Source: a virus
Lineage: Duplodnaviria > Heunggongvirae > Uroviricota > Caudoviricetes
Reading direction: 5' to 3' (one strand)
DNA length: 26,325 nt
IMG/VR virus record: IMGVR_UViG_2648501669_000017
The translations under genes were made by a program, and so were the position numbers. The notes under the pieces are model-generated. The model saw nothing but the letters and a program-made list of their open reading frames with translations. It did not search any database and was not told the origin of the DNA. Below are positions 804-23,300 of this stretch, piece after piece (position 1 is the stretch's first letter; each line of letters starts with the position of its first letter).

Positions 804-1141
804 TTTTTATGTGAGCAGAAGATATTCATCAGAAACGATTATGTAAATCATTTTATTTTGCCAACGGCCTCATTGTCGAAAGAAAAGAATACGCCCGTAT
901 TTCCTGAATGGATTGACTTTTTTATCCAACCACACTTCAGCGCACTGCGTTTAAAAAATGCCTCATTCTTATGCGGAATATCATCATTTCATCATGATGT
1001 CTTTGATGAGCGGTGAACACAATACACTTGCGCTGTCTCTTCAGGATGAATCCCCTGGTCTGGTGCCTGTGGGCTGATGTTGCAGCAAAGCTAAGGTCGC
1101 TTAAACGCTACTCAGTATTCACTTTTCAGAGGATGAAATTT

Positions 1142-4100
1142 ATGAACAGGACCAGTCCCTATTATTGTCGCCGCTCAGTACTTTCCTTATTGATATCTGC
1201 CTTGATATATGCCCCGCCCGGGATGGCTGCCTTCACTACTAATGTTATTGGTGTGGTAAACGATGAGACTGTAGATGGCAACCAAAAAGTGGATGAACGA
1301 GGTACAACAAATAACACTCATATTATCAACCATGGCCAGCAGAATGTTCATGGCGGGGTATCTAATGGAAGTCTTATTGAATCTGGTGGATATCAAGATA
1401 TAGGAAGTCATAACAATTTTGTGGGGCAGGCTAATAATACAACCATTAACGGTGGCAGACAGTCAATTCATGACGGGGGTATTTCCACAGGTACGACAAT
1501 CGAGAGTGGCAATCAGGACGTTTATAAAGGGGGTATCAGCAATGGAACGACAATTAAGGGCGGTGCTTCACGCGTAGAGGGAGGGAGTGCGAATGGAATA
1601 CTCATTGATGGTGGTAGCCAGATAGTAAAAGTTCAAGGGCATGCTGATGGTACAACGATAAATAAGTCTGGCTCTCAGGACGTAGTACAAGGAAGTCTGG
1701 CAACGAACACAACCATAAATGGTGGTCGACAGTATGTTGAACAGAGCACAGTAGAAACAACAACCATTAAAAATGGCGGTGAGCAAAGAGTATATGAGAG
1801 CCGTGCGCTGGACACGACGATTGAAGGCGGAACTCAGTCTCTGAATAGTAAGTCAACGGCAAAAAATACGCATATCTATTCTGGTGGCACGCAAATTGTT
1901 GATAACACCAGCACCTCGGATGTTATTGAAGTTTATTCTGGTGGCGTGCTTGATGTTAGTGGTGGTACGGCAACAAATGTTACCCAGCACGATGGTGCAA
2001 TTTTAAAAACTAACACTAACGGTACGACGGTGAGCGGTACGAATAGTGAAGGTGCATTCTCCATCCACAATCACGTGGCAGACAATGTGTTGCTGGAAAA
2101 CGGTGGTCATTTAGACATAAACGCATATGGTTCGGCAAACAAGACGATTATTAAAGATAAAGGAACAATGTCAGTTTTAACCAATGCTAAAGCTGATGCG
2201 ACCCGAATAGATAATGGCGGGGTTATGGATGTTGCAGGAAACGCGACAAATACCATAATTAATGGTGGCACACAGAATATTAATAATTATGGCATAGCCA
2301 CAGGCACCAATATCAACAGCGGAACGCAAAATATCAAAAGCGGCGGGAAAGCTGACACAACAATTATATCCTCCGGGAGCCGGCAGGTTGTTGAGAAAGA
2401 TGGTACGGCAATTGGCAGCAATATTAGCGCCGGAGGCTCGCTGATTGTCTATACCGGCGGTATTGCACATGGGGTTAACCAGGAGACGGGCAGTGCTTTA
2501 GTTGCCAACACGGGTGCAGGGACTGATATCGAAGGATACAACAAGCTCTCTCACTTCACTATTACCGGAGGGGAGGCTAATTATGTTGTGCTGGAAAATA
2601 CCGGCGAACTGACGGTAGTGGCTAAAACCTCGGCGAAAAATACTACCATTGATACTGGCGGTAAGCTGATTGTCCAGAAGGAGGCTAAAACAGATAGCAC
2701 CAGACTTAATAATGGCGGCGTTCTGGAGGTTCAGGACGGTGGTGAGGCTAAGCATGTTGAGCAACAATCCGGCGGCGCATTAATTGCTTCCACGACCTCC
2801 GGAACACTTATCGAAGGAACCAACAGTTATGGTGATGCTTTCTACATCAGGAATTCAGAAGCTAAAAATGTAGTGCTGGAAAACGCTGGCTCATTAACAG
2901 TCGTCACTGGTTCCCGCGCAGTTGACACGATTATTAATGCCAACGGCAAAATGGATGTTTATGGAAAAGATGTTGGCACTGTACTCAATAGTGCTGGCAC
3001 CCAAACAATATATGCCAGTGCCACTTCTGATAAAGCAAATATCAAAGGTGGCAAGCAAACGGTATATGGTTTAGCCACTGAAGCAAATATCGAAAGTGGT
3101 GAACAAATTGTTGATGGTGGGTCAACAGAGAAAACACACATCAATGGTGGCACGCAAACCGTTCAGAATTATGGTAAGGCAATCAATACCGATATCGTCT
3201 CTGGCCTACAACAAATTATGGCAAACGGGACAGCGGAAGGTTCCATTATTAATGGGGGTTCACAGGTAGTTAATGAGGGCGGTCTGGCTGAAAACTCGGT
3301 GCTTAATGACGGCGGCACACTCGATGTGCGGGAGAAAGGCAGCGCAACGGGGATACAGCAGAGTAGCCAGGGCGCTTTGGTTGCAACCACCAGGGCGACG
3401 CGGGTCACAGGAACACGCGCGGATGGCGTCGCGTTCAGCATCGAGCAGGGTGCGGCGAACAATATCCTGCTGGCAAATGGCGGCGTGTTAACCGTGGAGT
3501 CAGACACCTCTTCTGACAAAACACAGGTCAATATGGGCGGACGGGAGATCGTCAAAACAAAAGCCACTGCGACAGGCACGACGCTCACCGGCGGTGAACA
3601 AATTGTCGAGGGTGTGGCGAATGAGACAACAATTAACGACGGCGGAATACAAACAGTTTCAGCTAACGGAGAGGCAATAAAAACAAAGATCAATGAAGGC
3701 GGTACGCTGACAGTCAACGATAATGGCAAAGCGACAGATATCGTCCAGAACAGCGGTGCCGCTCTCCAGACGAGCACGGCTAACGGTATTGAAATCAGCG
3801 GTACTCACCAGTACGGTACTTTTTCCATTTCCGGCAATTTAGCGACCAATATGTTGCTGGAAAATGGCGGTAATTTATTGGTATTAGCAGGTACCGAAGC
3901 TCGCGACTCCACGGTTGGCAAGGGTGGGGCAATGCAAAACCTGGGTCAGGACTCCGCCACAAAGGTTAACTCTGGCGGGCAATATACCCTTGGGCGGTCA
4001 AAAGATGAGTTTCAGGCTCTGGCCCGGGCAGAAGATCTCCAGGTCGCTGGCGGTACGGCAATCGTCTACGCAGGTACGCTGGCGGATGCATCGGTCAGTG

Positions 4101-5722
4101 GCGCGACAGGAAGCCTGTCGTTAATGACGCCACGGGATAATGTTACGCCAGTTAAACTCGAAGGGGCGGTCCGGATTACCGATAGCGCGACATTGACTCT
4201 GGGAAATGGCGTCGATACCACGCTTGCCGACCTGACGGCTGCCAGCCGGGGCAGTGTCTGGCTTAACAGCAATAATTCCTGTGCAGGTACCAGCAACTGC
4301 GAATATAGAGTAAACAGTTTGCTACTCAACGACGGTGATGTTTATTTGTCAGCACAAACAGCAGCGCCTGCCACAACTAACGGTATCTACAATACGCTGA
4401 CAACCAATGAACTTTCCGGTAGCGGTAATTTCTACCTGCATACCAACGTTGCAGGCTCCCGGGGCGATCAACTGGTCGTCAACAACAACGCCACTGGTAA
4501 TTTTAAAATCTTTGTTCAGGATACCGGCGTCAGCCCACAGTCTGACGACGCGATGACGCTGGTGAAAACAGGGGGAGGGGATGCTTCGTTTACGCTGGGC
4601 AATACCGGCGGTTTCGTTGATCTTGGGACCTATGAGTATGTCCTGAAAAGTGACGGCAACAGCAACTGGAACCTGACCAATGATGTCAAACCCAACCCGG
4701 ACCCCATCCCAAATCCAAAGCCAGACCCAAAACCCGATCCAAAGCCAGACCCAAATCCAAAACCAGACCCTACTCCCGATCCAACGCCGACACCCGTTCC
4801 GGAGAAACGCATTACGCCTTCTACGGCAGCCGTACTCAATATGGCAGCAACATTACCGTTGGTATTTGATGCTGAGCTAAACAGTATTCGCGAGCGGTTG
4901 AACATAATGAAAGCGAGTCCACACAACAATAATGTCTGGGGGGCGACGTATAACACCCGTAATAATGTCACCACCGATGCGGGTGCCGGGTTTGAGCAGA
5001 CGCTGACCGGAATGACAGTGGGGATCGACAGCCGTAATGATATTCCTGAAGGAATTACCACGCTAGGCGCTTTTATGGGCTATTCCCATTCACATATCGG
5101 TTTTGATCGCGGAGGACATGGCAGTGTGGGCAGTTATTCTCTGGGCGGCTATGCCAGTTGGGAACATGAAAGTGGTTTCTATCTGGACGGTGTCGTGAAG
5201 CTGAACCGTTTTAAAAGTAACGTAGCAGGTAAAATGAGCAGCGGTGGAGCCGCCAATGGCAGTTACCACAGCAACGGGCTGGGCGGTCACATTGAAACCG
5301 GGATGCGATTTACCGATGGTAACTGGAACCTGACGCCGTATGCATCGTTAACGGGGTTCACCGCTGATAACCCCGAATATCATTTATCCAATGGCATGAA
5401 ATCGAAATCAGTCGATACCCGCAGTATATATCGTGAACTGGGCGCAACGCTGAGTTACAACATGCGTCTGGGGAACGGTATGGAAGTTGAGCCGTGGCTG
5501 AAGGCGGCTGTGCGCAAAGAATTTGTCGATGATAACCGGGTGAAAGTGAATAGTGACGGTAATTTCGTCAATTATTTGTCGGGCAGACGTGGAATATACC
5601 AGGCAGGTATTAAAGCCTCATTCAGCAGTACGTTAAGCGGGCATCTTGGGGTGGGGTATAGCCATAGTGCCGGTGTGGAATCCCCGTGGAACGCGGTAGC
5701 TGGTGTGAACTGGTCGTTCTGA
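1142..5722 (+). CDS. ypjA: Adhesin-like autotransporter (type Va): signal peptide, long repetitive beta-helical passenger domain, Pro-rich linker, C-terminal beta-barrel translocator
   Basis: ORF 1013-5722; ATG at 1142 sits 9 nt after AGAGGA and gives MNRTSPYYCRRSVLSLLISALIYAPPGMAAF (signal-peptide-like), total 1526 aa; iterative ~19-aa GG-x-Q/T-rich passenger repeats; PNPKPDPKPDP linker; C-terminal aromatic-rich barrel ending ...NWSF. Symbol assigned from length plus the adjacent invertase remnant and ssrA-att context, as recalled for E. coli K-12 ypjA. Confidence 0.8.
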   Translation: MNRTSPYYCRRSVLSLLISALIYAPPGMAAFTTNVIGVVNDETVDGNQKVDERGTTNNTHIINHGQQNVHGGVSNGSLIESGGYQDIGSHNNFVGQANNTTINGGRQSIHDGGISTGTTIESGNQDVYKGGISNGTTIKGGASRVEGGSANGILIDGGSQIVKVQGHADGTTINKSGSQDVVQGSLATNTTINGGRQYVEQSTVETTTIKNGGEQRVYESRALDTTIEGGTQSLNSKSTAKNTHIYSGGTQIVDNTSTSDVIEVYSGGVLDVSGGTATNVTQHDGAILKTNTNGTTVSGTNSEGAFSIHNHVADNVLLENGGHLDINAYGSANKTIIKDKGTMSVLTNAKADATRIDNGGVMDVAGNATNTIINGGTQNINNYGIATGTNINSGTQNIKSGGKADTTIISSGSRQVVEKDGTAIGSNISAGGSLIVYTGGIAHGVNQETGSALVANTGAGTDIEGYNKLSHFTITGGEANYVVLENTGELTVVAKTSAKNTTIDTGGKLIVQKEAKTDSTRLNNGGVLEVQDGGEAKHVEQQSGGALIASTTSGTLIEGTNSYGDAFYIRNSEAKNVVLENAGSLTVVTGSRAVDTIINANGKMDVYGKDVGTVLNSAGTQTIYASATSDKANIKGGKQTVYGLATEANIESGEQIVDGGSTEKTHINGGTQTVQNYGKAINTDIVSGLQQIMANGTAEGSIINGGSQVVNEGGLAENSVLNDGGTLDVREKGSATGIQQSSQGALVATTRATRVTGTRADGVAFSIEQGAANNILLANGGVLTVESDTSSDKTQVNMGGREIVKTKATATGTTLTGGEQIVEGVANETTINDGGIQTVSANGEAIKTKINEGGTLTVNDNGKATDIVQNSGAALQTSTANGIEISGTHQYGTFSISGNLATNMLLENGGNLLVLAGTEARDSTVGKGGAMQNLGQDSATKVNSGGQYTLGRSKDEFQALARAEDLQVAGGTAIVYAGTLADASVSGATGSLSLMTPRDNVTPVKLEGAVRITDSATLTLGNGVDTTLADLTAASRGSVWLNSNNSCAGTSNCEYRVNSLLLNDGDVYLSAQTAAPATTNGIYNTLTTNELSGSGNFYLHTNVAGSRGDQLVVNNNATGNFKIFVQDTGVSPQSDDAMTLVKTGGGDASFTLGNTGGFVDLGTYEYVLKSDGNSNWNLTNDVKPNPDPIPNPKPDPKPDPKPDPNPKPDPTPDPTPTPVPEKRITPSTAAVLNMAATLPLVFDAELNSIRERLNIMKASPHNNNVWGATYNTRNNVTTDAGAGFEQTLTGMTVGIDSRNDIPEGITTLGAFMGYSHSHIGFDRGGHGSVGSYSLGGYASWEHESGFYLDGVVKLNRFKSNVAGKMSSGGAANGSYHSNGLGGHIETGMRFTDGNWNLTPYASLTGFTADNPEYHLSNGMKSKSVDTRSIYRELGATLSYNMRLGNGMEVEPWLKAAVRKEFVDDNRVKVNSDGNFVNYLSGRRGIYQAGIKASFSSTLSGHLGVGYSHSAGVESPWNAVAGVNWSF
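4687..4800 (+). repeat. Proline-rich linker encoded by an imperfect tandem DNA repeat (CCAAAGCCAGACCCAAA-type units) inside the autotransporter gene
   Basis: Direct reading: ...cccaacccggaccccatcccaaatccaaagccagacccaaaacccgatccaaagccagacccaaatccaaaaccagaccc...; protein PNPDPIPNPKPDPKPDPKPDPNPKPDPTPDPTPTPVP. Confidence 0.8.
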
Positions 5723-5883: not shown

Positions 5884-5910
5884 GGTGGGCTGGCGGGAGT
5901 TGAACCCGCG
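5884..5910 (-). other. ssrA (tmRNA) 3'-end fragment, i.e. an att-core-like copy; not a complete RNA gene
   Basis: Minus strand reads CGCGGGTTCAACTCCCGCCAGCCCACCA, matching the T-arm/acceptor 3' end of E. coli tmRNA as I recall it (GCGGGTTCAACTCCCGCCAGCTCCACCA) apart from one missing T; sequence 5' of it on the minus strand has no tmRNA/tRNA character. A perfect 14-bp palindrome CCAATCATGATTGG (5872-5885) abuts it. Confidence 0.6.
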
Positions 5911-6052
5911 TATGATTGAATTTATGTGTATGAAAAATAAAGTTTAATTTCTTCCTGCAATCTTTGCGTATCAAAAACGTGCACTTCGTCATTATTTTAT
6001 AGTAATTTATTTTGCTCATTTTTGACTAGACAGATTTGGCTGAGGTGTCGCC

Positions 6053-6976
6053 ATGGAACTGTTGATTTCCCCAAAAAGATTGTGCCTTTATAATGATTCT
6101 GATCGCCGTGTTACAGCTAAGTTTTTGAACTCAGTTGATAACACCCTTGCGAGAGCATCTGGACAAGTGGTTATAGACTTTTCGACAGTAGAATATGCAG
6201 GTGCTGCAGCTAGCGTAAGGTTGTTTGCTATCATCAGTAGGGCTTATTTTATGGCATTCGGCACAAGTAGTCTTCGATTTATTTGGCCGAAAAAAGAAAA
6301 TAATCCGTATGGGCATCGATATATTGTTGGGACGGGGTTATCGATTGCTCTAATGGCAAATACAGTTGATAAATTAGATGTTCTTACTAAGGAACGCAGG
6401 TACTTTCAGTCTGCTGTGGAACCGTATGAACATTGGGCTAAAACGATGGAATTTATTGATTCAAAAGCAATTCTCACATTTGAGCAATATCTTTTGGTCT
6501 CCTCAGCCCTTAGTGAGGCAATGCTGAATGTTTCATATCATGCATATGAACATCCAGACTTTGCTGGTGCTACAGAGCATATGCAAGGGAAACGATGGTG
6601 GCAGAGTTGTTGGTACAACCCTGACACAGACAAGGTTGTCTTTATTATTTATGATCTTGGGCTTGGCATACATAAATCATTTACTTCAGCCTCTCCGTTG
6701 TTTACTGGGTATGACGACGTGACATCTGTGTCAACAGCCCTGACAGGAGGACAGTCCAGATATGTTAACGCTGGACGTGGTAATGGTTCTGAGGATATAA
6801 AGAGACCTATAGGGTCTGGCTGTGCGAATTCAGAATCACTTTTGGTGTTCACAGGGAATGTTAAGTACAGCTATAATTCAAGAAATGAGGTTCCCAAATG
6901 CGAGTGGATACCTGAGTACATGCCGGGAACATTGATTGAATGGTCATTAGTTCCGAGGAGAGGAGAAGATGGTTAA
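6053..6976 (+). CDS. Hypothetical protein with STAS-like N-terminal region and GHKL/HATPase_c-like ATP-binding C-terminal region (anti-sigma-factor-kinase-like)
   Basis: ATG 6053 preceded by TGAGGTG; 307 aa; by-eye motifs EAMLNVSYHA (N-box E-x3-N-x3-HA, aa 155-164), DLGLG (G1, aa 201-205), GRGNGS (G2, aa 241-246), GSG (aa 254-256); N-terminal QVVIDFSTVEYAGAAASVRLF resembles STAS/anti-sigma-antagonist folds. Confidence 0.6.
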   Translation: MELLISPKRLCLYNDSDRRVTAKFLNSVDNTLARASGQVVIDFSTVEYAGAAASVRLFAIISRAYFMAFGTSSLRFIWPKKENNPYGHRYIVGTGLSIALMANTVDKLDVLTKERRYFQSAVEPYEHWAKTMEFIDSKAILTFEQYLLVSSALSEAMLNVSYHAYEHPDFAGATEHMQGKRWWQSCWYNPDTDKVVFIIYDLGLGIHKSFTSASPLFTGYDDVTSVSTALTGGQSRYVNAGRGNGSEDIKRPIGSGCANSESLLVFTGNVKYSYNSRNEVPKCEWIPEYMPGTLIEWSLVPRRGEDG

Positions 6977-7310
6977 CATCGTCATAGCAAGGGATTTCTC
7001 AAAGATGCCATTTGGAAGGTTCAAGTCTGACAGCCCGAACAGTGCTGAGCGTTTTCGTAAGGACTTTCTGGTTCCTGCATTAAAATCTGGTGAGCGTGAG
7101 GTTGTCGTAGATTTTACGGGTATAAATCATGGGATTGGTTCTTCGTTTCTAGAGGAGGCCTTTGGAGGGCTTGTTAGGAAGGAAGGTGTACCTAAGGCTG
7201 ACATTAAGGCAAAACTAATTATAAAAAGTGATTTGCCGTTCTATAAAGATCAAATTTTTAGATATATTGAAATGGCTAATCCAGAAAGGAAGCCTTTCCA
7301 AAGGAGTTGA
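6969..7310 (+). CDS. Small STAS-like protein (DUF4325-like), candidate partner of the upstream ATPase
   Basis: ATG 6969 overlaps the upstream stop (6974-6976) and follows AGGAGAGGAGAAG; 113 aa; EVVVDFTGINHGIGSSFLEEAF is paralogous in pattern to the N-terminal segment of ORF 6053-6976. Confidence 0.55.
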   Translation: MVNIVIARDFSKMPFGRFKSDSPNSAERFRKDFLVPALKSGEREVVVDFTGINHGIGSSFLEEAFGGLVRKEGVPKADIKAKLIIKSDLPFYKDQIFRYIEMANPERKPFQRS

Positions 7311-7311
7311 T

Positions 7312-7941
7312 TTGAACACCGTTGATATTAAGGACACCCTTGCAGGGGTGTCCACTTACGCATGGATGTTTAGTGTTGTGAGTATTATCTTAGTGTTTAT
7401 TGGATGGTTTGTTACTTACAATAATTCACTGAAGATTGCTACTCGCTCTGAATCTAAATCGATTATAGATGCGATTGCTAAAATTTTAAACGAAATATCG
7501 GATTTGTCTCTGGATTACTGGGTTAATAAGTCAACACCACCAGATTCTAATCCATTTAAGAAAAAAAGTTTTAAGAACTCTAATGGATTGCATACTCAGT
7601 CGGCGAAAATATATTTAACGGCAATTCATGGAAAAGCCATACAAATAAATAAATACATTAATCTTCTCGATGAGAGGGGGATAAAAATAACAATTTCGTA
7701 TTTTTCTAATATTATAGATGAAGCTACTATGGAATGTGAGAAATCATATTGTTTTAATAAGTCATATAGGGTTTTTCGCGCTCAGAATGTATCTAGTGCT
7801 TGTATCGATTTCATAATGCATTTATATGATTCTTTTCAAAAAAATCATCCTCCACGTAAGCCTGTATATGTATTGAAAACATTAAAACAATTGGATTGTT
7901 ACTTGGATAAATGGCATAATGAATTATGTGGGCGGCAATAA
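7312..7941 (+). CDS. Hypothetical membrane-anchored protein, AT-rich; start uncertain (TTG 7312 after AAGGAG, or ATG 7366)
   Basis: ORF 7228-7941; the GTG at 7228 would overlap the upstream gene by 83 nt; AAGGAG (7301-7306) + 5 nt + TTG 7312 sits directly after the upstream stop; single N-terminal hydrophobic helix MFSVVSIILVFIGWFVTY; Lys/Asn-rich, visibly low GC. Confidence 0.5.
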   Translation: MNTVDIKDTLAGVSTYAWMFSVVSIILVFIGWFVTYNNSLKIATRSESKSIIDAIAKILNEISDLSLDYWVNKSTPPDSNPFKKKSFKNSNGLHTQSAKIYLTAIHGKAIQINKYINLLDERGIKITISYFSNIIDEATMECEKSYCFNKSYRVFRAQNVSSACIDFIMHLYDSFQKNHPPRKPVYVLKTLKQLDCYLDKWHNELCGRQ

Positions 7942-7949
7942 ATGCCGCC
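7931..7949. terminator. Hairpin between the convergent 3' ends of ORF 7312-7941 and int (putative bidirectional terminator)
   Basis: GGCGGCA-ataaa-TGCCGCC; stop codons of both flanking genes lie within or beside it. Confidence 0.45.
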
Positions 7950-7953
7950 ATAA

Positions 7954-9120
7954 TCATTGTATAATGTATTTGATGGAGCTTTTTCCGTCGTATTCTTTGA
8001 GATATCGACCATAGTGCCTGAAAAGCATCTCCGGCCCTTTATGCCCCATTTGAGCTGCAAGCCAAAACAGGTTTGCTCCTCGGCTGATATGGCTGGTGGC
8101 GAATGTATGCCTGGTTTGATATGGGTTTCTGTAACGAATACCTGCTTTTCGCAATGTTGGCACCCATGCTTTTTTCCTAATTGCATCAGCACTTGCCCAA
8201 GGCTTATTGGTCTTTGGATCTTCAAAGACAGTAGTATCCTTCATGAATGTAAATGGCTTCTGATTTATCAGCGCCAACATTGCCTCTTCTGTCAGTTCAA
8301 CTTTCCGAGTACCTGCTTTTGTCTTTGTCCCTTTGATAACACCGACAACACTTGCGCTCTGGACATAGGCAGTTTTTCCAACAAAGTCGATATCACGCCA
8401 TCGAAGGGCACATAATTCAGAACTACGCAGGCCTGTATGTATAGCGAACCGGAACAGATTTTCCCATTGTTTGTTTCCGGCTGCTGCTAGTAATGCATCA
8501 ACTTCTGCTGGTGATAGCGGATCAACTACGTAGCTGCTTTCTGCTTCTGACTTATCACTTTGGTAGCGCGAAGCTGTTACTAACGATACGGGGTTAATTT
8601 GAAGTACCCCATCGGTCACGGCTTCATCAAGTGCTGACCGCAGGAAAGATAACTGGTTGCGAATTGTTTTTAAGGTCGTTTTCTGATTTTGAATCCACGC
8701 TTTCAGGGTTGCTGGTGTTAATTCACTTGCAGGGCAAATGTGAAGTGAGGCTAACGCACTACGGCATTTTTTATAGCCACCAATCGTAGAGGGTGAAAGT
8801 TTTCTTGTTTCGCAGATTTCAAGATATTCGTCCAGGTACATCTTTACCGTTTTGCCTGCAGCAGCATTACCAAAAATTTTCAAACGAGCAGAACGGGGAA
8901 AATATTCTGCATAAATGAATGTTCCCCTTTCGATCTTATTATGGATTTCGCCGAGTGTACGCTCGGCGTATTTAATGTTCTTTGGTGTTACTTCCAGATT
9001 GGAAAGCGGCTCACGACATCTAACTCCTTTGTAGGTGAAAGTTATATTGATCGTTTCTCCCTGGCGGTGTTTCCTGATTGTTACGCCGCGCGGTAGTTTG
9101 AGCAGTTTTGTCTGGCCCAT
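7954..9120 (-). CDS. int: Phage integrase, tyrosine recombinase family with N-terminal arm-binding domain
   Basis: 388 aa; ATG at 9120 after GTGAGGT; C-terminal catalytic signature ...TRHTFATSHISRGANLFWLAAQMGHKGPEMLFRHYGRY (R...H-x-x-R...Y); N-terminal LPRGVTIRKHRQGETINITFTYKGVRCRE arm-type domain. Confidence 0.9.
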   Translation of the reverse strand: MGQTKLLKLPRGVTIRKHRQGETINITFTYKGVRCREPLSNLEVTPKNIKYAERTLGEIHNKIERGTFIYAEYFPRSARLKIFGNAAAGKTVKMYLDEYLEICETRKLSPSTIGGYKKCRSALASLHICPASELTPATLKAWIQNQKTTLKTIRNQLSFLRSALDEAVTDGVLQINPVSLVTASRYQSDKSEAESSYVVDPLSPAEVDALLAAAGNKQWENLFRFAIHTGLRSSELCALRWRDIDFVGKTAYVQSASVVGVIKGTKTKAGTRKVELTEEAMLALINQKPFTFMKDTTVFEDPKTNKPWASADAIRKKAWVPTLRKAGIRYRNPYQTRHTFATSHISRGANLFWLAAQMGHKGPEMLFRHYGRYLKEYDGKSSIKYIIQ

Positions 9121-9328: not shown

Positions 9329-10195
9329 TTAACGAATAGTGTCGTTACTTTGAAGTACAGCAAATGCCATTAATACTTCTAAAGTATATCTTCTATAAAA
9401 TTTAACAAAACCAACATAGAAAACATAGACGAAGAAAAAGCTAAGCATTATTGAAAGTAAACTATAAAGATAATCACTATGAGTACATAATCGATAAATA
9501 AAGGTTGGAACTGATACCCAAAATGAAATTATAAAGATTAAACATATGTTTCTGCAAAAACCATATAATGCAACATAGTTTTGAATTTTTGTTTGATGTT
9601 GTTTTGAAAACTCATAAACATAATGATATGCCAATCTGAAGAGATCATCATCAAGTCCGTTTTTATCTTGTAATAATTGGCGATTTGTTATGAACTTTTT
9701 CTCATAACCTTCTTTGATCATTAACCATGTTGTATTAGCTAAATGAAATGGTAGAGATTGAGAATAACATAGTTTTTGTGTTGTAAAATCCCATAGTATT
9801 ATTGGGCATAATACGCATTTGATTATGCGATTCTTTATTTTTGTTTTTTTATCAGCGCTTCTCTCATCGCATGATGGGCTACAAATGCTTTCTGAGGTAT
9901 CTATCAATTTTTTAAATAGATATTTGGAAGGATATCCTAATTCTTTATTCATGTGTTTTTCGATAAAAAATGCTGACGTGATAGAAATAAAATGTCCAGC
10001 TATATAAGATATAATAACTATTGAAGCGTAGTTCAAAATGCCAAAGATTTGACTTTGACCTCTGAGCAATTCACTTAAGTCAATAACAATATCTAGATCG
10101 AATGTCAAACCACAGAAATACATTAATAGGATAAAAAAACCACCTGGTATTAAATATCCAAGAAAGTCATAGAATGAGAATGGATTTTGATTCAT
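9329..10195 (-). CDS. Hypothetical polytopic membrane protein (about 4 TM helices, two at each end), very AT-rich cargo gene
   Basis: ORF 9329-10219; the first in-frame ATG is at 10195 with GGAGAG 6 nt upstream; hydrophobic segments FLGYLIPGGFFILLMYFCGLTF, IFGILNYASIVIISYIAGHFISI, ICLIFIISFWVSVPTFIY, LYSLLSIMLSFFFVYVFYVGFV; no motif recognised. Confidence 0.6.
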   Translation of the reverse strand: MNQNPFSFYDFLGYLIPGGFFILLMYFCGLTFDLDIVIDLSELLRGQSQIFGILNYASIVIISYIAGHFISITSAFFIEKHMNKELGYPSKYLFKKLIDTSESICSPSCDERSADKKTKIKNRIIKCVLCPIILWDFTTQKLCYSQSLPFHLANTTWLMIKEGYEKKFITNRQLLQDKNGLDDDLFRLAYHYVYEFSKQHQTKIQNYVALYGFCRNICLIFIISFWVSVPTFIYRLCTHSDYLYSLLSIMLSFFFVYVFYVGFVKFYRRYTLEVLMAFAVLQSNDTIR

Positions 10196-10303
10196 TGTTG
10201 CTCTCCAATAATTGTTCAATTTGTAATATAACCTATATCTATATGTTAATAAATTACTTATATGTTCTTTTATGGCAGAGTTTGAATTCGTACGTGCTGA
10301 TTT

Positions 10304-15798: not shown

Positions 15799-16289
15799 GC
15801 ATGAGTCTTTTGAATGACGTTCAGAAATTCATTGAAGCCCATCCGGGGTGTACTTCCGGAGACATTGCGGATGCTTTTGCAGGTTACTCACGGCAGCGCG
15901 TTCTGCAGTCTGCAAGCAAGTTACGTCAGAGTGGGCGTGTGGCTCACCGTTGTGAAGGAGATACACGCAGACATTTCCCGCGCCTGACTGAGAGAGCGCA
16001 GGAGCCGGAACCACAACCAGTTCGTGAAACCAGACCTGTGCGCAATTTCTATGTCGGCACTAACGACCCGCGGGTGATTTTGTGCCTGACCCGCCAGGCG
16101 GAAGAACTGGAGTCCAGGGGCTTATACCGTCGTGCTGCAACGGTGTGGATGGCGGCATTCCGTGAAAGCCACTCCCAGCCAGAACGAAACAATTTTCTGG
16201 CGCGTCGTGAACGGTGTTTACGGAAAAGCAGTAAGCGGGCTGCATCAGGTGAAGAGTGGTATCTCTCAGGGAATTACGTGGGGGCTTAA
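15795..16289 (+). CDS. PerC-family-like transcriptional regulator with N-terminal winged-helix region
   Basis: 164 aa; start ATG overlaps the O-like stop; segment LESRGLYRRAATVWMAAF...ERNNFLARRERC resembles the conserved core of PerC/Pch activators as I recall them (QQGLWRRAARRW...C..RR.FC). Confidence 0.5.
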   Translation: MSMSLLNDVQKFIEAHPGCTSGDIADAFAGYSRQRVLQSASKLRQSGRVAHRCEGDTRRHFPRLTERAQEPEPQPVRETRPVRNFYVGTNDPRVILCLTRQAEELESRGLYRRAATVWMAAFRESHSQPERNNFLARRERCLRKSSKRAASGEEWYLSGNYVGA

Positions 16290-16942
16290 TGAGTAATAAA
16301 TATTGCCAGGCGCTGGCGGAACTGCGGAACAAACCAGCCCATGAACTGAAGGAAGTGGGCGATCAGTGGCGCACGCCGGACAACATTTTCTGGGGAATTA
16401 ACACTCTGTTTGGCCCGTTTGTTCTGGATCTGTTTACTGACGGTGATAACGCCAAATGTGCTGCGTATTACACGGCGGAAGACAACGCGCTGGCGCATGA
16501 CTGGTCAGAACGCCTTGCGGAGCTTAAAGGTGCTGCCTTTGGTAATCCCCCATACAGCCGCGCCAGTCAGCATGAGGGGCAATACATCACCGGCATGCGT
16601 TACATCATGAAGCATGCCAGTGCCATGCGTGATAAAGGCGGGCGCTATGTTTTCCTGATCAAAGCTGCCACCAGCGAAGTGTGGTGGCCGGAAGATGCAG
16701 ATCATATTGCTTTTATTCGCGGGCGTATTGGTTTTGAACTGCCTGCCTGGTTTATCCCGAAGGATGAGAAGCAGGTGCCGACAGGCGCTTTCTTCGCTGG
16801 TGCTATTGCTGTTTTCGACAAGACCTGGAAGGGACCGGCAATCAGCTACATCGGGCGCTATGAACTTGAGGCATGTGGTGAGGCCTTTCTGGCGCAGGTT
16901 CGCCAGCAGGCAGAAAAACTGGTCAGGGAGATGGCGGCATGA
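16289..16942 (+). CDS. Phage Dam-family N6-adenine DNA methyltransferase (YfdM-type)
   Basis: Start ATG 16289 overlaps the upstream TAA (TAATG); catalytic motif FGNPPYS; conserved WRTPD and DLFTDG segments typical of the phage N-6-adenine-methyltransferase family. Confidence 0.8.
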   Translation: MSNKYCQALAELRNKPAHELKEVGDQWRTPDNIFWGINTLFGPFVLDLFTDGDNAKCAAYYTAEDNALAHDWSERLAELKGAAFGNPPYSRASQHEGQYITGMRYIMKHASAMRDKGGRYVFLIKAATSEVWWPEDADHIAFIRGRIGFELPAWFIPKDEKQVPTGAFFAGAIAVFDKTWKGPAISYIGRYELEACGEAFLAQVRQQAEKLVREMAA

Positions 16943-20039: not shown

Positions 20040-21491
20040 TTATTTTATTTTGCTTACTATATTTGTAATAAGTGGGTCAAATTTCTCATCAATAATTTCA
20101 ATATATTTTTTTATTGCTAAAGTTCTAATTACTTCCTCCTCACATTCTGCTTCTTTAGCAATTGCTTGAGTGTAATTGTGATGATCACTAATCCCTTCCT
20201 TTTTTATTAACCAATCAAAATCAATATGATACTCCTTGTAGAGGAATTTTTTTACTTCCTCATGTTGAAATACTTCTACTTCTGGTGGCCTATTGCCAGG
20301 GAAAGAAAATAAATCATCTTTAATGTTTTCTCCAACATCTGCATCTCTTACGGCAATAACATTAAGGCCTGCTTTCTTGAATACCTCGACTGCTTGTCGG
20401 ACTGCATCTTTATCTCCAATATCAGTGATTTGAATGGATTTAAGAATGTCTCTCCGCTTTGCTCTAATTACTTCACTAAGTAAAACTTTTGCAAACTGGT
20501 CTTCTACGCAAATATGCAGCCCTTTAAACTGCCCATCAGACAGTATTGATCTCACATGAGTTGTTGAAATTCCATCTTTGATATAGACACCAGTCTGATC
20601 TCTAATAAGTAATTTTCGTGCATCAGGAGGTAAAGCATTTAATATCACACTTGAGTGTGTTGATAATATTATTTGATGTTTTCTACGTTGACATACTTCC
20701 ATTAAATATTTTGCAAATTCATACTGTGCGCTTTCATGAAGAGATGTTTCTGGTTCTTCTAGTACGAAAAGACTTTGCTCTGGAGCTGTTTCAAGCATAT
20801 CAACCGTATAAAGAACTCTTCCTTCGCCAAACCCCATGTTATTTTCAGAATAAGAATACCCAAGTCTTTCAACAATACCAATTTCTGAACGACGTGCTCT
20901 ATGAGAAATTCCTTGGAATGCGATATCATCATATGGATGACCTATTATTTTTGCCATCTTCAATATTACTGAATGGTCGACGCTTCTTCTCTCTGTTAAA
21001 TCAAAGTCTTTACCGCCATAAACACTTATATCTCTACGTTCTACTTTTGGAATATAGACAGTAAAACCAATGTAAAAACAGTGTCTTTCTGGTTGTCTTT
21101 TATATCCAGACCAAGAAGACTTTATGCGAGTGACAGTCACATCTTGTGTTTTCGTTGAATCATTTGTTTCATATTTATAAATGACACTGGCGTCATTATC
21201 GAAAGGGGCTGGATCGGCTTTAGATACAGGGAAAAAATCTTTAATATATAATCTCTTATATTCACGGGCTGTAACTGGTTTTTTATATGCGCATATTGCT
21301 AACTGCCCAAGAGTGCTTTTCCCAGCGCCGTTTAGCCCTGATATTGCAGTTACCGGAAAATTTATATTTAATGTTAGTTTTTTTATTCCTCGAAATCCAT
21401 TTATCTCTAGACTTTTAATTACGGAGCCAAAGTTTGAGTATCTATTTTTATCAAAGTACATGCATTTTAGTATATTTTTTATGTCTGACAT
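20040..21491 (-). CDS. OLD-family-like ATPase-nuclease: N-terminal ABC-type ATPase + C-terminal TOPRIM-like domain (candidate anti-phage defence protein)
   Basis: 483 aa; ATG 21491 with AGGAAAG 8 nt upstream; Walker A GLNGAGKST (aa 52-60), signature-like SENNMGFGEG (aa 214-223), Walker B LFVLEEPE (aa 241-248), H-loop LSTHS (aa 276-280); TOPRIM-like acidic motifs HICVEDQ (E330) and IAVRDADVGEN (D383/D385); visibly AT-rich; transcribed against the late operon. Confidence 0.75.
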   Translation of the reverse strand: MSDIKNILKCMYFDKNRYSNFGSVIKSLEINGFRGIKKLTLNINFPVTAISGLNGAGKSTLGQLAICAYKKPVTAREYKRLYIKDFFPVSKADPAPFDNDASVIYKYETNDSTKTQDVTVTRIKSSWSGYKRQPERHCFYIGFTVYIPKVERRDISVYGGKDFDLTERRSVDHSVILKMAKIIGHPYDDIAFQGISHRARRSEIGIVERLGYSYSENNMGFGEGRVLYTVDMLETAPEQSLFVLEEPETSLHESAQYEFAKYLMEVCQRRKHQIILSTHSSVILNALPPDARKLLIRDQTGVYIKDGISTTHVRSILSDGQFKGLHICVEDQFAKVLLSEVIRAKRRDILKSIQITDIGDKDAVRQAVEVFKKAGLNVIAVRDADVGENIKDDLFSFPGNRPPEVEVFQHEEVKKFLYKEYHIDFDWLIKKEGISDHHNYTQAIAKEAECEEEVIRTLAIKKYIEIIDEKFDPLITNIVSKIK

Positions 21492-22247: not shown

Positions 22248-23300
22248 ATGAAAAATACTGTAAAAATAAACAGTGTTGATTTAATCAACGCTGATTGCCT
22301 GCATTTTATTCAGTCCCTGCCTGATGATTCCATTGACCTGATTGTTACCGATCCGCCTTACTTCAAGGTGAAACCCAACGGTTGGGACAATCAGTGGAAA
22401 GGGGACGAAGATTACCTTAAGTGGCTGGACCACTGTCTGGCCCAGTTCTGGCGGGTGTTGAAACCTGCCGGAAGCCTTTACCTGTTCTGTGGGCATCGCC
22501 TGGCATCTGATATTGAGATCATGATGCGTGAACGTTTCAACGTGCTTAACCATATCATCTGGGCGAAGCCGTCCGGACGTTGGAATGGGTGTAATAAAGA
22601 AAGTCTGCGCGCATATTTTCCTGCCACAGAGCGCGTTCTGTTTGCTGAACATTACCAGGGGCCATATCGCGGCAAAAGTGACGACTATGCGGCAAAAGAA
22701 AGGGAACTCAAACAGCACATAATGGCACCGCTGATATCGTATTTCAGGGATGCTCGTGCCGAACTGGGTATAACGGCAAAACAAATTGCCGAAGCCACAG
22801 ATAAGAAAAATATGGTTTCCCACTGGTTTGGTGCCAGTCAGTGGCAGTTGCCGAATGAGGCTGACTATCGGAAGTTACAGGCACTGTTTTCCCGTATAGC
22901 GGCAGAGAAGTTTCAGGAACAACAACTGGAACAACCACACCACCAGCTGGTGGCATCTTATGATTCACTGAATCGCAAATATTCTGAATTGCTGGATGAG
23001 TTTAAATCTCTCCGGCGCTATTTCTCCGTATCAGTCTCTGTGCCTTATACCGATGTCTGGACGCATAAGCCCGTTCAGTTCTACCCGGGTAAACATCCGT
23101 GCGAGAAACCGGCGGATATGCTCCGGCAAATAATCAATGCCAGTAGTCGACCTGGTGATCTGGTTGCTGATTTCTTTATGGGATCCGGTTCCACAATAAA
23201 AGCAGCAATGGCGCTGGGGCGTCGGGCGTTAGGTGTTGAACTTGAGTCAGAGCGGTTTAATCAGACGGTGAAAGAGGTAAGTGAACTGGTGGGGAAATAA
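22248..23300 (+). CDS. Orphan DNA methyltransferase, beta-class (motif IV DPPY N-terminal, motif I FxGxG C-terminal); N6-adenine or N4-cytosine specific
   Basis: 350 aa; IVTDPPYF (aa 32-39) and ADFFMGSGST (aa ~308-317); central insertion with an HTH-like segment (ITAKQIAEATD); no adjacent restriction endonuclease recognisable. Confidence 0.85.
   Translation: MKNTVKINSVDLINADCLHFIQSLPDDSIDLIVTDPPYFKVKPNGWDNQWKGDEDYLKWLDHCLAQFWRVLKPAGSLYLFCGHRLASDIEIMMRERFNVLNHIIWAKPSGRWNGCNKESLRAYFPATERVLFAEHYQGPYRGKSDDYAAKERELKQHIMAPLISYFRDARAELGITAKQIAEATDKKNMVSHWFGASQWQLPNEADYRKLQALFSRIAAEKFQEQQLEQPHHQLVASYDSLNRKYSELLDEFKSLRRYFSVSVSVPYTDVWTHKPVQFYPGKHPCEKPADMLRQIINASSRPGDLVADFFMGSGSTIKAAMALGRRALGVELESERFNQTVKEVSELVGK

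What the first reader, a model, noticed from the sequence alone, without database searches (positions are those of the whole stretch)
6053..7941. Tightly coupled three-gene cassette between the att-core fragment and int: STAS-like + GHKL-ATPase protein, free STAS-like protein, membrane protein
Three same-strand ORFs are packed with overlapping or abutting stop/start codons and strong RBSs (AGGAGAGGAGAAG before 6969; AAGGAG before 7312), which argues for a single operon. ORF1 carries by-eye GHKL/HATPase_c motifs (EAMLNVSYHA, DLGLG, GRGNG) behind an N-terminal STAS-like segment (QVVIDFSTVEYAGAAASVRLF). ORF2 is a small protein whose core (EVVVDFTGINHGIGSSFLEEAF) looks paralogous to that segment. 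ORF3 is an AT-rich single-pass membrane protein. The combination recalls RsbW/RsbV- or SpoIIAB/SpoIIAA-type partner-switching kinases, but here it is prophage-borne, sits in a cargo position between att and int, and is coupled to a membrane protein. I do not recognise it as a named phage-defence or toxin system, which makes it the most plausible candidate in this window for an undescribed accessory (defence, abortive-infection or exclusion) module.
Basis: partly seen in the sequence, partly recalled or inferred. Interest (0 to 1): 0.8.

Follow-up and report, generated by a model that had tools for sequence, protein, structure and literature searches.

The report
Prophage kinase–STAS–membrane protein defence-like cassette
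A prophage in this E. coli carries a conserved three-gene operon (a serine-kinase-like sensor, a small switch protein it probably phosphorylates, and a membrane-anchored protein) that is built like the recently described VapKSC anti-phage toxin–antitoxin system, except that an uncharacterised membrane protein replaces the RNase toxin.

Summary
There are three co-oriented genes: ORF1 6053-6976, ORF2 6969-7310 and ORF3 7312-7941. They overlap by 8 nt or are separated by 1 nt, and they lie between a tmRNA 3'-end att fragment and the integrase of a lambdoid prophage.

- **ORF2** is a Pfam DUF4325 STAS-like protein with an invariant GSSF motif.
- **ORF3** has one N-terminal transmembrane helix and a cytoplasmic four-helix bundle. 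It matches no Pfam or PADLOC family.

The gene order is conserved in every locus I inspected across many Gammaproteobacteria, including loci reached through very distant ORF3 relatives.

The closest described system is VapKSC (Chambers et al., EMBO J 2026). There an ssDNA-activated STAS-GHKL kinase phosphorylates a DUF4325 antitoxin and releases a PIN toxin. ORF1 is a remote full-length homologue of VapK (hhalign E 1.8e-5). ORF2 Ser58 aligns with the VapS phospho-serine. ORF3 is unrelated to VapC.

My verdict is a new variant of a known kind: a kinase–STAS switch coupled to a membrane effector, most likely an abortive-infection or exclusion module. Function has not been tested. About 2.5% of complete E. 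coli genomes carry a member, including UTI89 and APEC O1.

The parts
5893..5910 (-). att core: an 18-nt copy of the 3' end of tmRNA (ssrA), marking the prophage/chromosome junction next to ypjA
   Evidence: Rfam tmRNA match to model positions 346-363, E 2.7e-5. ARAGORN finds no intact tRNA or tmRNA in the window.
5911..6052 (+). AT-rich upstream region with the presumed promoter and 5' UTR of the cassette. It holds a 13-nt imperfect inverted repeat (5971-5983 / 6013-6025) and a GAGG ribosome-binding site 7 nt before the ATG.
   Evidence: The consensus scan found no sigma-70 site here. The block TTGCG(T/G)ATC...ACGT is shared with the diverged E. coli variant. Promoter function is inferred only.
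6053..6976 (+). ORF1 ('K'), 307 aa. It has an N-terminal STAS-like domain (about residues 1-120) and a C-terminal SpoIIAB/RsbW-like GHKL serine-kinase domain. Box positions: N box 6515-6529, G1 6653-6667, G2 6776-6787, G3 6926-6931.
6969..7310 (+). ORF2 ('S'), 113 aa. It is a DUF4325 STAS-like protein with a short C-terminal tail. The candidate phospho-acceptor is Ser58 (7140-7142) in the invariant GSSFLEE motif.
   Evidence: Pfam DUF4325 at E 8e-15. G57-S58-S59-F60-L61-E62 is invariant in 10 genera. S58 aligns with the VapS phospho-site S48. VapS is also DUF4325, at E 2.7e-17.
7312..7941 (+). ORF3 ('T'), 209 aa, starting at TTG. It has a transmembrane helix at residues 17-36 (7360-7419), a juxtamembrane motif ATRSESKS with invariant R45 and E47, and then a four-helix bundle predicted to be cytoplasmic. 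It is the putative effector.
7931..7949 (.). Hairpin GGCGGC-aataaat-GCCGCC spanning the ORF3 stop codon, between the convergent ORF3 and int genes. It is a possible bidirectional terminator.
   Evidence: Read directly from the sequence. The terminator scan did not call it because there is no T-run. This is inference.
7954..9120 (-). Prophage tyrosine integrase (context). It is convergent with the cassette and fixes the cargo slot between att and int.
   Evidence: Pfam Arm-DNA-bind_2 plus Phage_integrase. RefSeq annotates it as 'site-specific integrase'.

Best explanation
The cassette is a three-component, phosphorylation-gated module of the VapKSC type, carried as prophage cargo.

Proposed mechanism:
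1. ORF1 (K) is a STAS-GHKL serine kinase that acts as the sensor. [quoted passage not shown]
2. ORF2 (S) is its DUF4325 STAS substrate. In resting cells it binds the cytoplasmic four-helix bundle of the membrane-anchored ORF3 (T) and holds it inactive.
3. When K is activated it phosphorylates S on Ser58. S then lets go, and T compromises the inner membrane. This stops growth or kills the infected lysogen before the superinfecting phage completes its cycle (abortive infection or exclusion).

Shown here:
- the domain identities of the three proteins;
- intact catalytic boxes in K;
- an invariant serine in S at the VapS phospho-position;
- strict K-S-T gene linkage over large evolutionary distance;
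- the mobile-element and prophage cargo location.

Inferred, not shown:
- kinase activity;
- the activating signal;
- binding of S to T;
- toxicity of T;
- any anti-phage phenotype.
For: **K (ORF1)**
- The N, G1, G2 and G3 boxes are invariant in 43 of 43 homologues.
- It aligns collinearly over its full length with the VapK family (hhalign E 1.8e-5, 268 columns). It has the same size and the same box positions, and VapK F54, the putative ssDNA contact, falls on Y48.
- The ORF1-family profile scores VapK higher (22 bits, E 6e-4) than it scores RsbW, the best hit in the PDB (13 bits), at the same database size.
- A bridging K protein, from locus L026, scores on both profiles.

**S (ORF2)**
- It belongs to the same Pfam family as VapS.
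- S58 in the invariant GSSF motif aligns with VapS S48, the residue whose phosphomimetic mutant releases VapC (PMC13373217).

**T (ORF3)**
- All 162 representatives among 1.84 billion proteins are small standalone proteins.
- In all four distant cases with readable flanks, a DUF4325 gene and an ORF1-family K gene lie directly upstream.

**Context**
- The cassette sits in the att-int slot of a second, different lambdoid prophage in Klebsiella, and beside a tRNA 3' end followed by an integrase-like ORF in Pluralibacter.
- It also occurs in a Yersinia prophage and next to a type I R-M hsdR gene.
- Sister E. coli prophages carry other cargo in the same slot.
- The same prophage carries a HEC-04-like ATPase-Toprim defence candidate.
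- VapKSC itself protects E. coli against phage Bas42.
Against: - There is no experimental datum for this cassette.
- Homology of K to VapK is remote: 14% identity and hhalign probability 78%. The VapK-family HMM does not detect ORF1 in the reverse direction.
- The aromatic residue equivalent to VapK F54 is aromatic in only 28 of 43 family members, so the activating signal may differ.
- ORF3 has no recognisable toxin or pore fold, only a generic four-helix bundle. Its toxicity is conjecture.
- I could not run a complex prediction for S with T or for K with S.
- None of the three proteins has a significant PADLOC match (ORF3 only E 0.007 to a 2TM effector model). There is no tblastn match to sequenced phage genomes.
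- No clear promoter was found upstream.
Confidence: 0.5

Rival explanations
1. The cassette is a classical partner-switching regulator rather than a toxin system. ORF1 would act like SpoIIAB or RsbW and sequester a host or phage protein, such as a sigma factor or a prophage regulator. ORF2 would be the antagonist that frees that target. ORF3 would be a membrane input or anchor that reports envelope status. The output would be transcriptional, for example control of lysogeny or induction.
For: The best structural matches for ORF1 are true anti-sigma factors. The ORF2 profile weakly matches RsbS and STAS antagonists. In the sporulation system the third partner, SpoIIE, is also membrane-bound (established knowledge).
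Against: No sigma factor, PP2C phosphatase or DNA-binding domain is encoded in or next to the cassette in any locus. The module moves between unrelated prophages and chromosomal islets as a self-contained three-gene unit, so its target must be either universal or internal to the unit. ORF3 has no phosphatase fold.
Confidence: 0.15
2. The cassette is a plain addiction or stabilisation toxin-antitoxin module, or a superinfection-exclusion membrane protein with two regulators. It would benefit the prophage by post-segregational killing or by blocking DNA entry, without any DNA-damage sensing or abortive infection.
For: The cassette sits at the att-int junction of prophages. The membrane protein is small like SieB or Imm-type exclusion factors (established knowledge). 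ORF3 gives a weak hit to PADLOC's '2TM effector' model at E 0.007.
Against: A fully conserved ATP-binding kinase and an invariant phospho-acceptor motif argue for signal-dependent switching rather than constitutive exclusion. The cassette also occurs outside prophages, in a Pseudoalteromonas chromosomal islet and beside a type I restriction-modification (R-M) gene.
Confidence: 0.2
3. ORF1 is an ATPase rather than a protein kinase, and ORF2 and ORF3 are its clients or adaptors. On this reading the similarity to VapKSC is only architectural convergence.
For: Foldseek's best PDB hits are Hsp90, GyrB and topoisomerase II ATPase domains at weak E-values of about 1e-3. The Pfam HATPase_c_2 hit is below threshold.
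Confidence: 0.1

Closest known systems
VapKSC (VapK kinase, VapS STAS antitoxin, VapC PIN toxin; Chambers et al., EMBO J 2026, PMC13373217)
   Same: - The three-gene operon has the same order and almost the same sizes: 297-302, 116 and 203 aa, against 307, 113 and 209 aa here.
- K has the same STAS plus GHKL architecture without an HTH domain. The N, G1, G2 and G3 boxes sit at nearly the same residue numbers, and the full-length profile-profile match has E 1.8e-5.
- S is in the same Pfam family, DUF4325, with a short C-terminal tail and a conserved serine at the aligned phospho-position.
- Both occur in E. coli and on mobile or defence-associated DNA.
   Different: - The third gene is not a PIN nuclease. 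It is a membrane-anchored four-helix-bundle protein with no detectable similarity to VapC (hhalign probability 0.1%).
- K shares only about 14% identity with VapK and forms a separate, much smaller family restricted to Gammaproteobacteria: 149 clusters against at least 990 for VapK.
- The ssDNA-contact aromatic residue is only partly conserved.
- This family is absent from the paper's locus list, which required a vapC gene.
CapK/CapS, DNA-damage-responsive regulators of CBASS, Bub and Thoeris operons (same paper)
   Same: A STAS-GHKL kinase is followed directly by a STAS-domain substrate. The association with immune or mobile DNA is also shared.
   Different: ORF1 lacks CapK's N-terminal HTH domain. 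ORF2 lacks CapS's C-terminal winged-helix DNA-binding domain. No downstream immune operon is present, only ORF3 and then the convergent int gene.
SpoIIAB/SpoIIAA and RsbW/RsbV partner-switching modules
   Different: The kinase carries its own fused STAS domain. There is no sigma factor and no PP2C phosphatase. The module is prophage cargo coupled to a membrane protein.
Defence systems with transmembrane effectors (for example CBASS or Pycsar TM effectors, and PADLOC '2TM effector' models)
   Same: A small membrane protein is encoded last in a sensor-first operon on mobile DNA. ORF3 gives a weak PADLOC 2TM-effector hit at E 0.007.
   Different: There is no significant sequence or fold match to any of them. 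No nucleotide-signalling enzyme is present. Control would be by a protein kinase and STAS switch.

Membership tests
VapKSC | K protein of about 300 aa with an N-terminal STAS domain and a C-terminal GHKL kinase domain, without an HTH | tested here: met
VapKSC | K is a sequence homologue of VapK | tested here: inconclusive
   hhalign of family against family gives probability 78% and E 1.8e-5 over 268 collinear columns. The ORF1 profile scores VapK at 22 bits (E 6e-4), but the VapK-family profile does not detect ORF1. One bridging sequence exists. This is remote homology, not membership of the same sequence family.
VapKSC | S protein is a STAS (DUF4325) domain plus a short C-terminal region, with a conserved Ser/Thr phospho-acceptor | tested here: met
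   Pfam DUF4325 scores E 8e-15 for ORF2 and 2.7e-17 for VapS. S58 is invariant and aligns with VapS S48.
VapKSC | The third gene encodes a VapC-like PIN-domain nuclease toxin | tested here: not met
   ORF3 has no PIN hit. Its model is all-helical with a transmembrane anchor. hhalign against E. coli VapC gives probability 0.1%.
VapKSC | Kinase activated by ssDNA through a conserved aromatic residue (VapK F54) | tested here: inconclusive
   The aligned position is Y48. It is aromatic in 28 of 43 homologues and otherwise mostly L, V or M. DNA binding cannot be tested with these tools.
VapKSC | Protects against phage, and the toxin is neutralised by unphosphorylated S | not testable with these tools
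   This needs plaque and toxicity assays.
CapK/CapS regulators | HTH on the kinase, a wHTH on the STAS protein, and a position upstream of an immune operon | tested here: not met
   No HTH or wHTH domain is found in ORF1 or ORF2. Only ORF3 follows, and then the convergent int gene.
SpoIIAB/RsbW-type partner switching | GHKL serine-kinase fold of the anti-sigma factor type, plus a STAS antagonist | tested here: met
SpoIIAB/RsbW-type partner switching | A cognate sigma factor and a PP2C phosphatase in the module | tested here: not met
   Neither is encoded in the cassette or conserved in its neighbourhood in the loci examined.
Pfam DUF4325 (STAS-like) | Score above the Pfam gathering threshold | tested here: met
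   ORF2 scores 54.7 bits against a cutoff of 23.
Catalogued defence systems (PADLOC-DB 2.0.0) | A significant match of any component to a system model | tested here: not met
   There are no hits for ORF1 or ORF2. ORF3 gives only E 0.007 to a generic 2TM effector model.

The most novel reading that the evidence does not exclude
The STAS-GHKL kinase plus DUF4325 pair is a general, portable 'sensor-and-latch' unit that evolution has plugged onto unrelated outputs: a repressor domain in CapS, a PIN RNase in VapKSC, and here a membrane-anchored four-helix-bundle protein. The present triad would then be an undescribed abortive-infection system in which serine phosphorylation of a STAS latch unleashes a new type of membrane-disrupting effector. 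It is carried by prophages of clinically important E. coli such as UTI89 and APEC O1.
Probability: 0.35. Interest if true: 0.7.

Novelty: new variant of a known kind. Interest (0 to 1): 0.6.

Why it matters
If the model is right, this would be a second, independent effector class controlled by the newly discovered kinase/STAS phospho-switch. That would show the switch is a modular immune sensor rather than a peculiarity of one toxin–antitoxin family.

It would also define a new family of membrane effectors: 162 representative clusters, all of unknown function. It would assign a function to three 'hypothetical' genes present in about 2.5% of complete E. coli genomes, including model uropathogenic and avian-pathogenic strains.

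The compact 1.9-kb cassette, the predicted catalytic residues (N159, D201) and the predicted phospho-site (S58) make the hypothesis directly testable.

Tried and rejected
- **Weak family hits for ORF1.** Pfam and NCBIfam gave only sub-threshold hits (HATPase_c_2 E 0.028, SpoIIAB E 0.055). These are not enough on their own.
- **PDB sequence searches.** The ORF1 profile found only RsbW's N box at E 0.34. A single-sequence search with ORF2 found nothing. The ORF2 profile found only marginal STAS hits. The VapS-VapC entry 9Z7O did not surface in these searches.
- **Structure prediction for ORF3.** An 18-sequence alignment was used instead.
- **ORF2 against the ORF1 N-terminus.** hhalign gave probability 2%, so I rejected the sequence-paralogy claim.
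- **First comparison with VapK.** hhalign of the ORF1 family against the single VapK sequence shifted the STAS domain by one beta-alpha unit. The family-against-family alignment supersedes it.
- **Promoter and terminator scan.** No consensus promoter lies upstream of ORF1, and no canonical terminator follows ORF3.
- **Sequenced phages.** tblastn of ORF1 against 50,697 phage records found no match.
- **Alternative cargo in the same slot.** PADLOC and Pfam scans of the genes that occupy the att-int slot in sister prophages found no known system. They show the slot is variable but do not prove it is a defence hotspot.
- **Literature.** Searches for DUF4325, 'STAS-like' with phage, and STAS with prophage and kinase found nothing besides the Chambers et al. 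paper.
- **ORF3 juxtamembrane serines as an alternative kinase target.** I considered S46, S48 and S50 and rejected them, because they are replaced by N, A or D in distant homologues.
Full report
**1. What is in the sequence**

The window is E. coli chromosome.
- The autotransporter gene ypjA/ehaD (1013-5722, + strand) is followed by an 18-nt copy of the tmRNA 3' end on the minus strand (5893-5910; Rfam E 2.7e-5).
- Next come three plus-strand ORFs.
- Then comes a convergent tyrosine integrase (7954-9120, minus strand; Arm-DNA-bind_2 plus Phage_integrase).
- The rest is a lambdoid prophage with xis-like, yfdPQR, a cI-type repressor, replication genes, Q, lysis and terminase.

- ORF1 (6053-6976) and ORF2 (6969-7310) overlap by 8 nt, with AGGAGAGGAGAAG upstream of the ORF2 ATG.
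- ORF3 starts at TTG 7312, one base after the ORF2 stop and 5 nt after AAGGAG. RefSeq annotation uses the same starts.
- GC content falls along the cassette (41.8%, 40.6%, 32.4%) against 46% for the whole window.
- A GGCGGC-N7-GCCGCC hairpin (7931-7949) spans the ORF3 stop, between the convergent genes.
- The simple scan found no consensus sigma-70 promoter upstream of ORF1. The two E. coli variants of the cassette share a short upstream block.

**2. The three proteins**

*ORF1.* Library HMMs see it only weakly (HATPase_c_2 E 0.028; SpoIIAB E 0.055). Homologue conservation and the predicted structure are much clearer.
- It has 149 homologous clusters, all about 305 aa, in Enterobacterales, Vibrio, Pseudoalteromonas, Aeromonas and others.
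- In an alignment of 43 of them, the GHKL boxes are invariant: E155/N159, D201-x-G203-x-G205, R242-G-N-G245 and G292-T293. Family-specific motifs HAY and G-x-RWWQ are also invariant.
- The AlphaFold2 model is confident (pLDDT 89.6, pTM 0.89).
- Foldseek alone gave only weak GHKL ATPase hits.

*ORF2.* It is Pfam DUF4325, 'STAS-like', at E 8e-15.
- Across ten genera, G57-S58-S59-F60-L61-E62 is invariant. An N-terminal motif PFGR is also invariant.

*ORF3.*
- It has one strong hydrophobic helix at residues 17-36. The basic juxtamembrane flank (K40, R45, K49) places the C-terminal 170 residues in the cytoplasm by the positive-inside rule.
- The AlphaFold2 model (pLDDT 80) is a long transmembrane-plus-stalk helix followed by a helical bundle.
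- No Pfam family matches any of 27 members. PADLOC gives only E 0.007 to a '2TM effector' model.
- W32, R45, E47, R122 and P181 are invariant.

PHROGs places all three proteins in families of unknown function.

**3. Is the triad real?**

Yes. Every locus I inspected has the same order and tight spacing.
- Nine loci from Pluralibacter, Budvicia, Rouxiella, Serratia, Cognaticolwellia, Enterobacter, an Oceanospirillaceae MAG, Aeromonas and a diverged E. coli allele.
- Klebsiella, Yersinia and Pseudoalteromonas. The third genes there match the ORF3 profile at E 4e-65 to 7.5e-38.

I then approached from the other side. An exhaustive profile search with ORF3 against 1.84 billion representative proteins found 162 relatives. 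All are standalone proteins of 65-289 aa.
- I looked up five distant relatives (E 3e-16 down to 3.5e-4). The four with readable flanks all have a DUF4325 gene directly upstream, preceded by an ORF1-family kinase gene. The kinase profile scores are E 5e-118 to 1.8e-35. The fifth lies on a 990-bp contig with no flanking genes.
- In one phage-like contig the kinase gene is split into a 100-aa STAS part and a 179-aa kinase part.

So ORF3-family genes appear to exist only as the third member of this triad. That is strong evidence for a functional, and probably physical, connection.

**4. Where it lives**

- In E. coli the exact allele is in 10 of 5,426 complete genomes. A variant at about 68% nucleotide identity is in 127 more, including UTI89, NU14 and APEC O1. 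It is always chromosomal and single-copy.
- Sister prophages with the same int, xis and yfdR genes carry different cargo in the att-int slot. One has a two-gene pair and another has a ParA-family gene plus two hypothetical genes. None of these is a catalogued system.
- In Klebsiella the triad again sits between a tRNA 3' end and the integrase of a different lambdoid prophage. In Pluralibacter it follows a tRNA 3' end and precedes an integrase-like ORF.
- In Yersinia it lies beside prophage tail genes.
- In one metagenomic contig it lies next to a type I restriction hsdR gene.
- In Pseudoalteromonas it is a small chromosomal islet.
- The same prophage in this window also carries a HEC-04-like ATPase-Toprim gene (PADLOC E 3.9e-47).

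This is the behaviour of mobile accessory cargo.

**5. Closest known system**

A full-text search led to Chambers et al., EMBO J 2026 (PMC13373217). The paper describes two systems.
- CapK (HTH-STAS-GHKL kinase) is activated by ssDNA and phosphorylates the STAS-wHTH repressor CapS.
- In the three-gene VapKSC system, VapK (STAS-GHKL) is proposed to phosphorylate VapS on S48. VapS is a STAS domain with a short C-terminal tail. Phosphorylation would release the PIN toxin VapC. VapKSC gives about 2 logs of protection against phage Bas42.

I transcribed VapK and VapS from the paper's supplementary AlphaFold file and compared them with the cassette.
- VapS is DUF4325 (E 2.7e-17), the same Pfam family as ORF2. 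hhalign places ORF2 S58 on VapS S48.
- I built a 26-sequence VapK-family alignment. It aligns with the ORF1 family collinearly over 268 columns (probability 78%, E 1.8e-5). The STAS domains are in register, so VapK F54 falls on ORF1 Y48. That column is aromatic in 28 of 43 members.
- At equal database size the ORF1 profile scores VapK at 22 bits, against 13 bits for RsbW, the best hit in the PDB. The reverse search, VapK profile against ORF1, finds nothing. One K protein bridges both profiles.
- The E. coli vapKSC locus has gene sizes of 297, 116 and 203 aa, almost the same as 307, 113 and 209 aa here.
- Its third gene is a PIN protein. ORF3 is unrelated to it (hhalign probability 0.1%).
- The paper's locus table required a vapC gene, and the accessions of this cassette are not in it.

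**6. Most likely mechanism**

I propose the VapKSC logic with a swapped output.
1. K senses an infection or DNA-damage cue.
2. K phosphorylates S on Ser58.
3. S releases the cytoplasmic bundle of T.
4. T damages the membrane and aborts the infection or excludes the incoming phage.

What is shown: the folds, the intact catalytic boxes, the conserved phospho-site position, the obligate K-S-T linkage and the mobile cargo context. What is inferred: kinase activity, the signal, S-T binding, T toxicity and any defence phenotype. My confidence is about 0.5.

Rival explanations:
- A transcription-type partner switch. No sigma factor, phosphatase or DNA-binding domain travels with the module.
- A constitutive exclusion or addiction module. 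This is hard to reconcile with a perfectly conserved kinase and phospho-site.

**7. Verdict**

This triad fails the defining 'VapC PIN toxin' test and is only a remote sequence relative of VapK. I therefore file it as a new variant of a known kind: it works like VapKSC but is not a member of that family. It is worth an experiment because it is compact, has clear point-mutant predictions, and would define a new membrane effector family and broaden the kinase/STAS switch into a modular immune sensor.

Noticed in passing
window 20040-21491 (-): A 483-aa AAA_15/AAA_21 ATPase lies between the Q antiterminator region and the lysis genes. It matches PADLOC HEC-04 (E 3.9e-47) and ATPase-Toprim, AriA and GajA-like models. 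It is a second, catalogued candidate defence gene carried as accessory cargo (a moron) in the same prophage.
   Followed up: partly
window 9329-10219 (-): A very AT-rich gene (GC 0.29) just inside the prophage, next to the xis-like gene, encodes a 296-aa multi-pass membrane protein. It belongs to phrog_12528 (E 2.5e-172, unknown function) and weakly resembles the type VI-B CRISPR-associated membrane protein Csx27 (PADLOC E 2.6e-6). It is conserved in sister prophages.
   Followed up: partly
L011 2143-3331; L013 1801-3723 (same att-int slot in sister E. coli prophages): The slot occupied by the cassette holds other uncharacterised cargo in closely related prophages. One has overlapping 271-aa and 127-aa genes, the second with a weak HEPN-like hit. 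Another has a ParA-family ATPase plus two hypothetical genes on the opposite strand. This is a variable cargo hotspot worth mining.
   Followed up: partly
L029 2468-4166 and L030 2761-4459: In a phage-like contig the kinase gene of the triad is split into a 100-aa STAS protein and a 179-aa GHKL protein. These are followed by DUF4325 and a short (152-aa) ORF3 relative, directly downstream of a cI-type repressor.
   Followed up: partly
L026 4001-4603; L028 1928-2530: Distant ORF3 relatives carry a second hydrophobic helix at the extreme C-terminus, giving two membrane anchors. This suggests the helical bundle is tethered at both ends in some lineages.
   Followed up: no
L001 2611-6079 (E. coli CFSAN064035, island next to the cassette): In that strain the neighbouring integrase-bounded island carries a HEF_HK/HATPase_c protein (572 aa) followed by a Response_reg_2 'response receiver' protein (582 aa). 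This is another kinase-type two-gene conflict-system candidate with no PADLOC match.
   Followed up: no
PHROG phrog_5816: ORF2 matches only positions 340-438 of a 441-position PHROG profile. So in some phages the DUF4325 domain sits at the C-terminus of a much longer protein, possibly a fused kinase-STAS form.
   Followed up: no
window 16256-16942 (+) and 22248-23300 (+): The prophage encodes two DNA methyltransferases (PADLOC MTase_II, E 9e-157 and 2e-150) with no adjacent restriction endonuclease. They are probably orphan, anti-restriction-type methylases.
   Followed up: no
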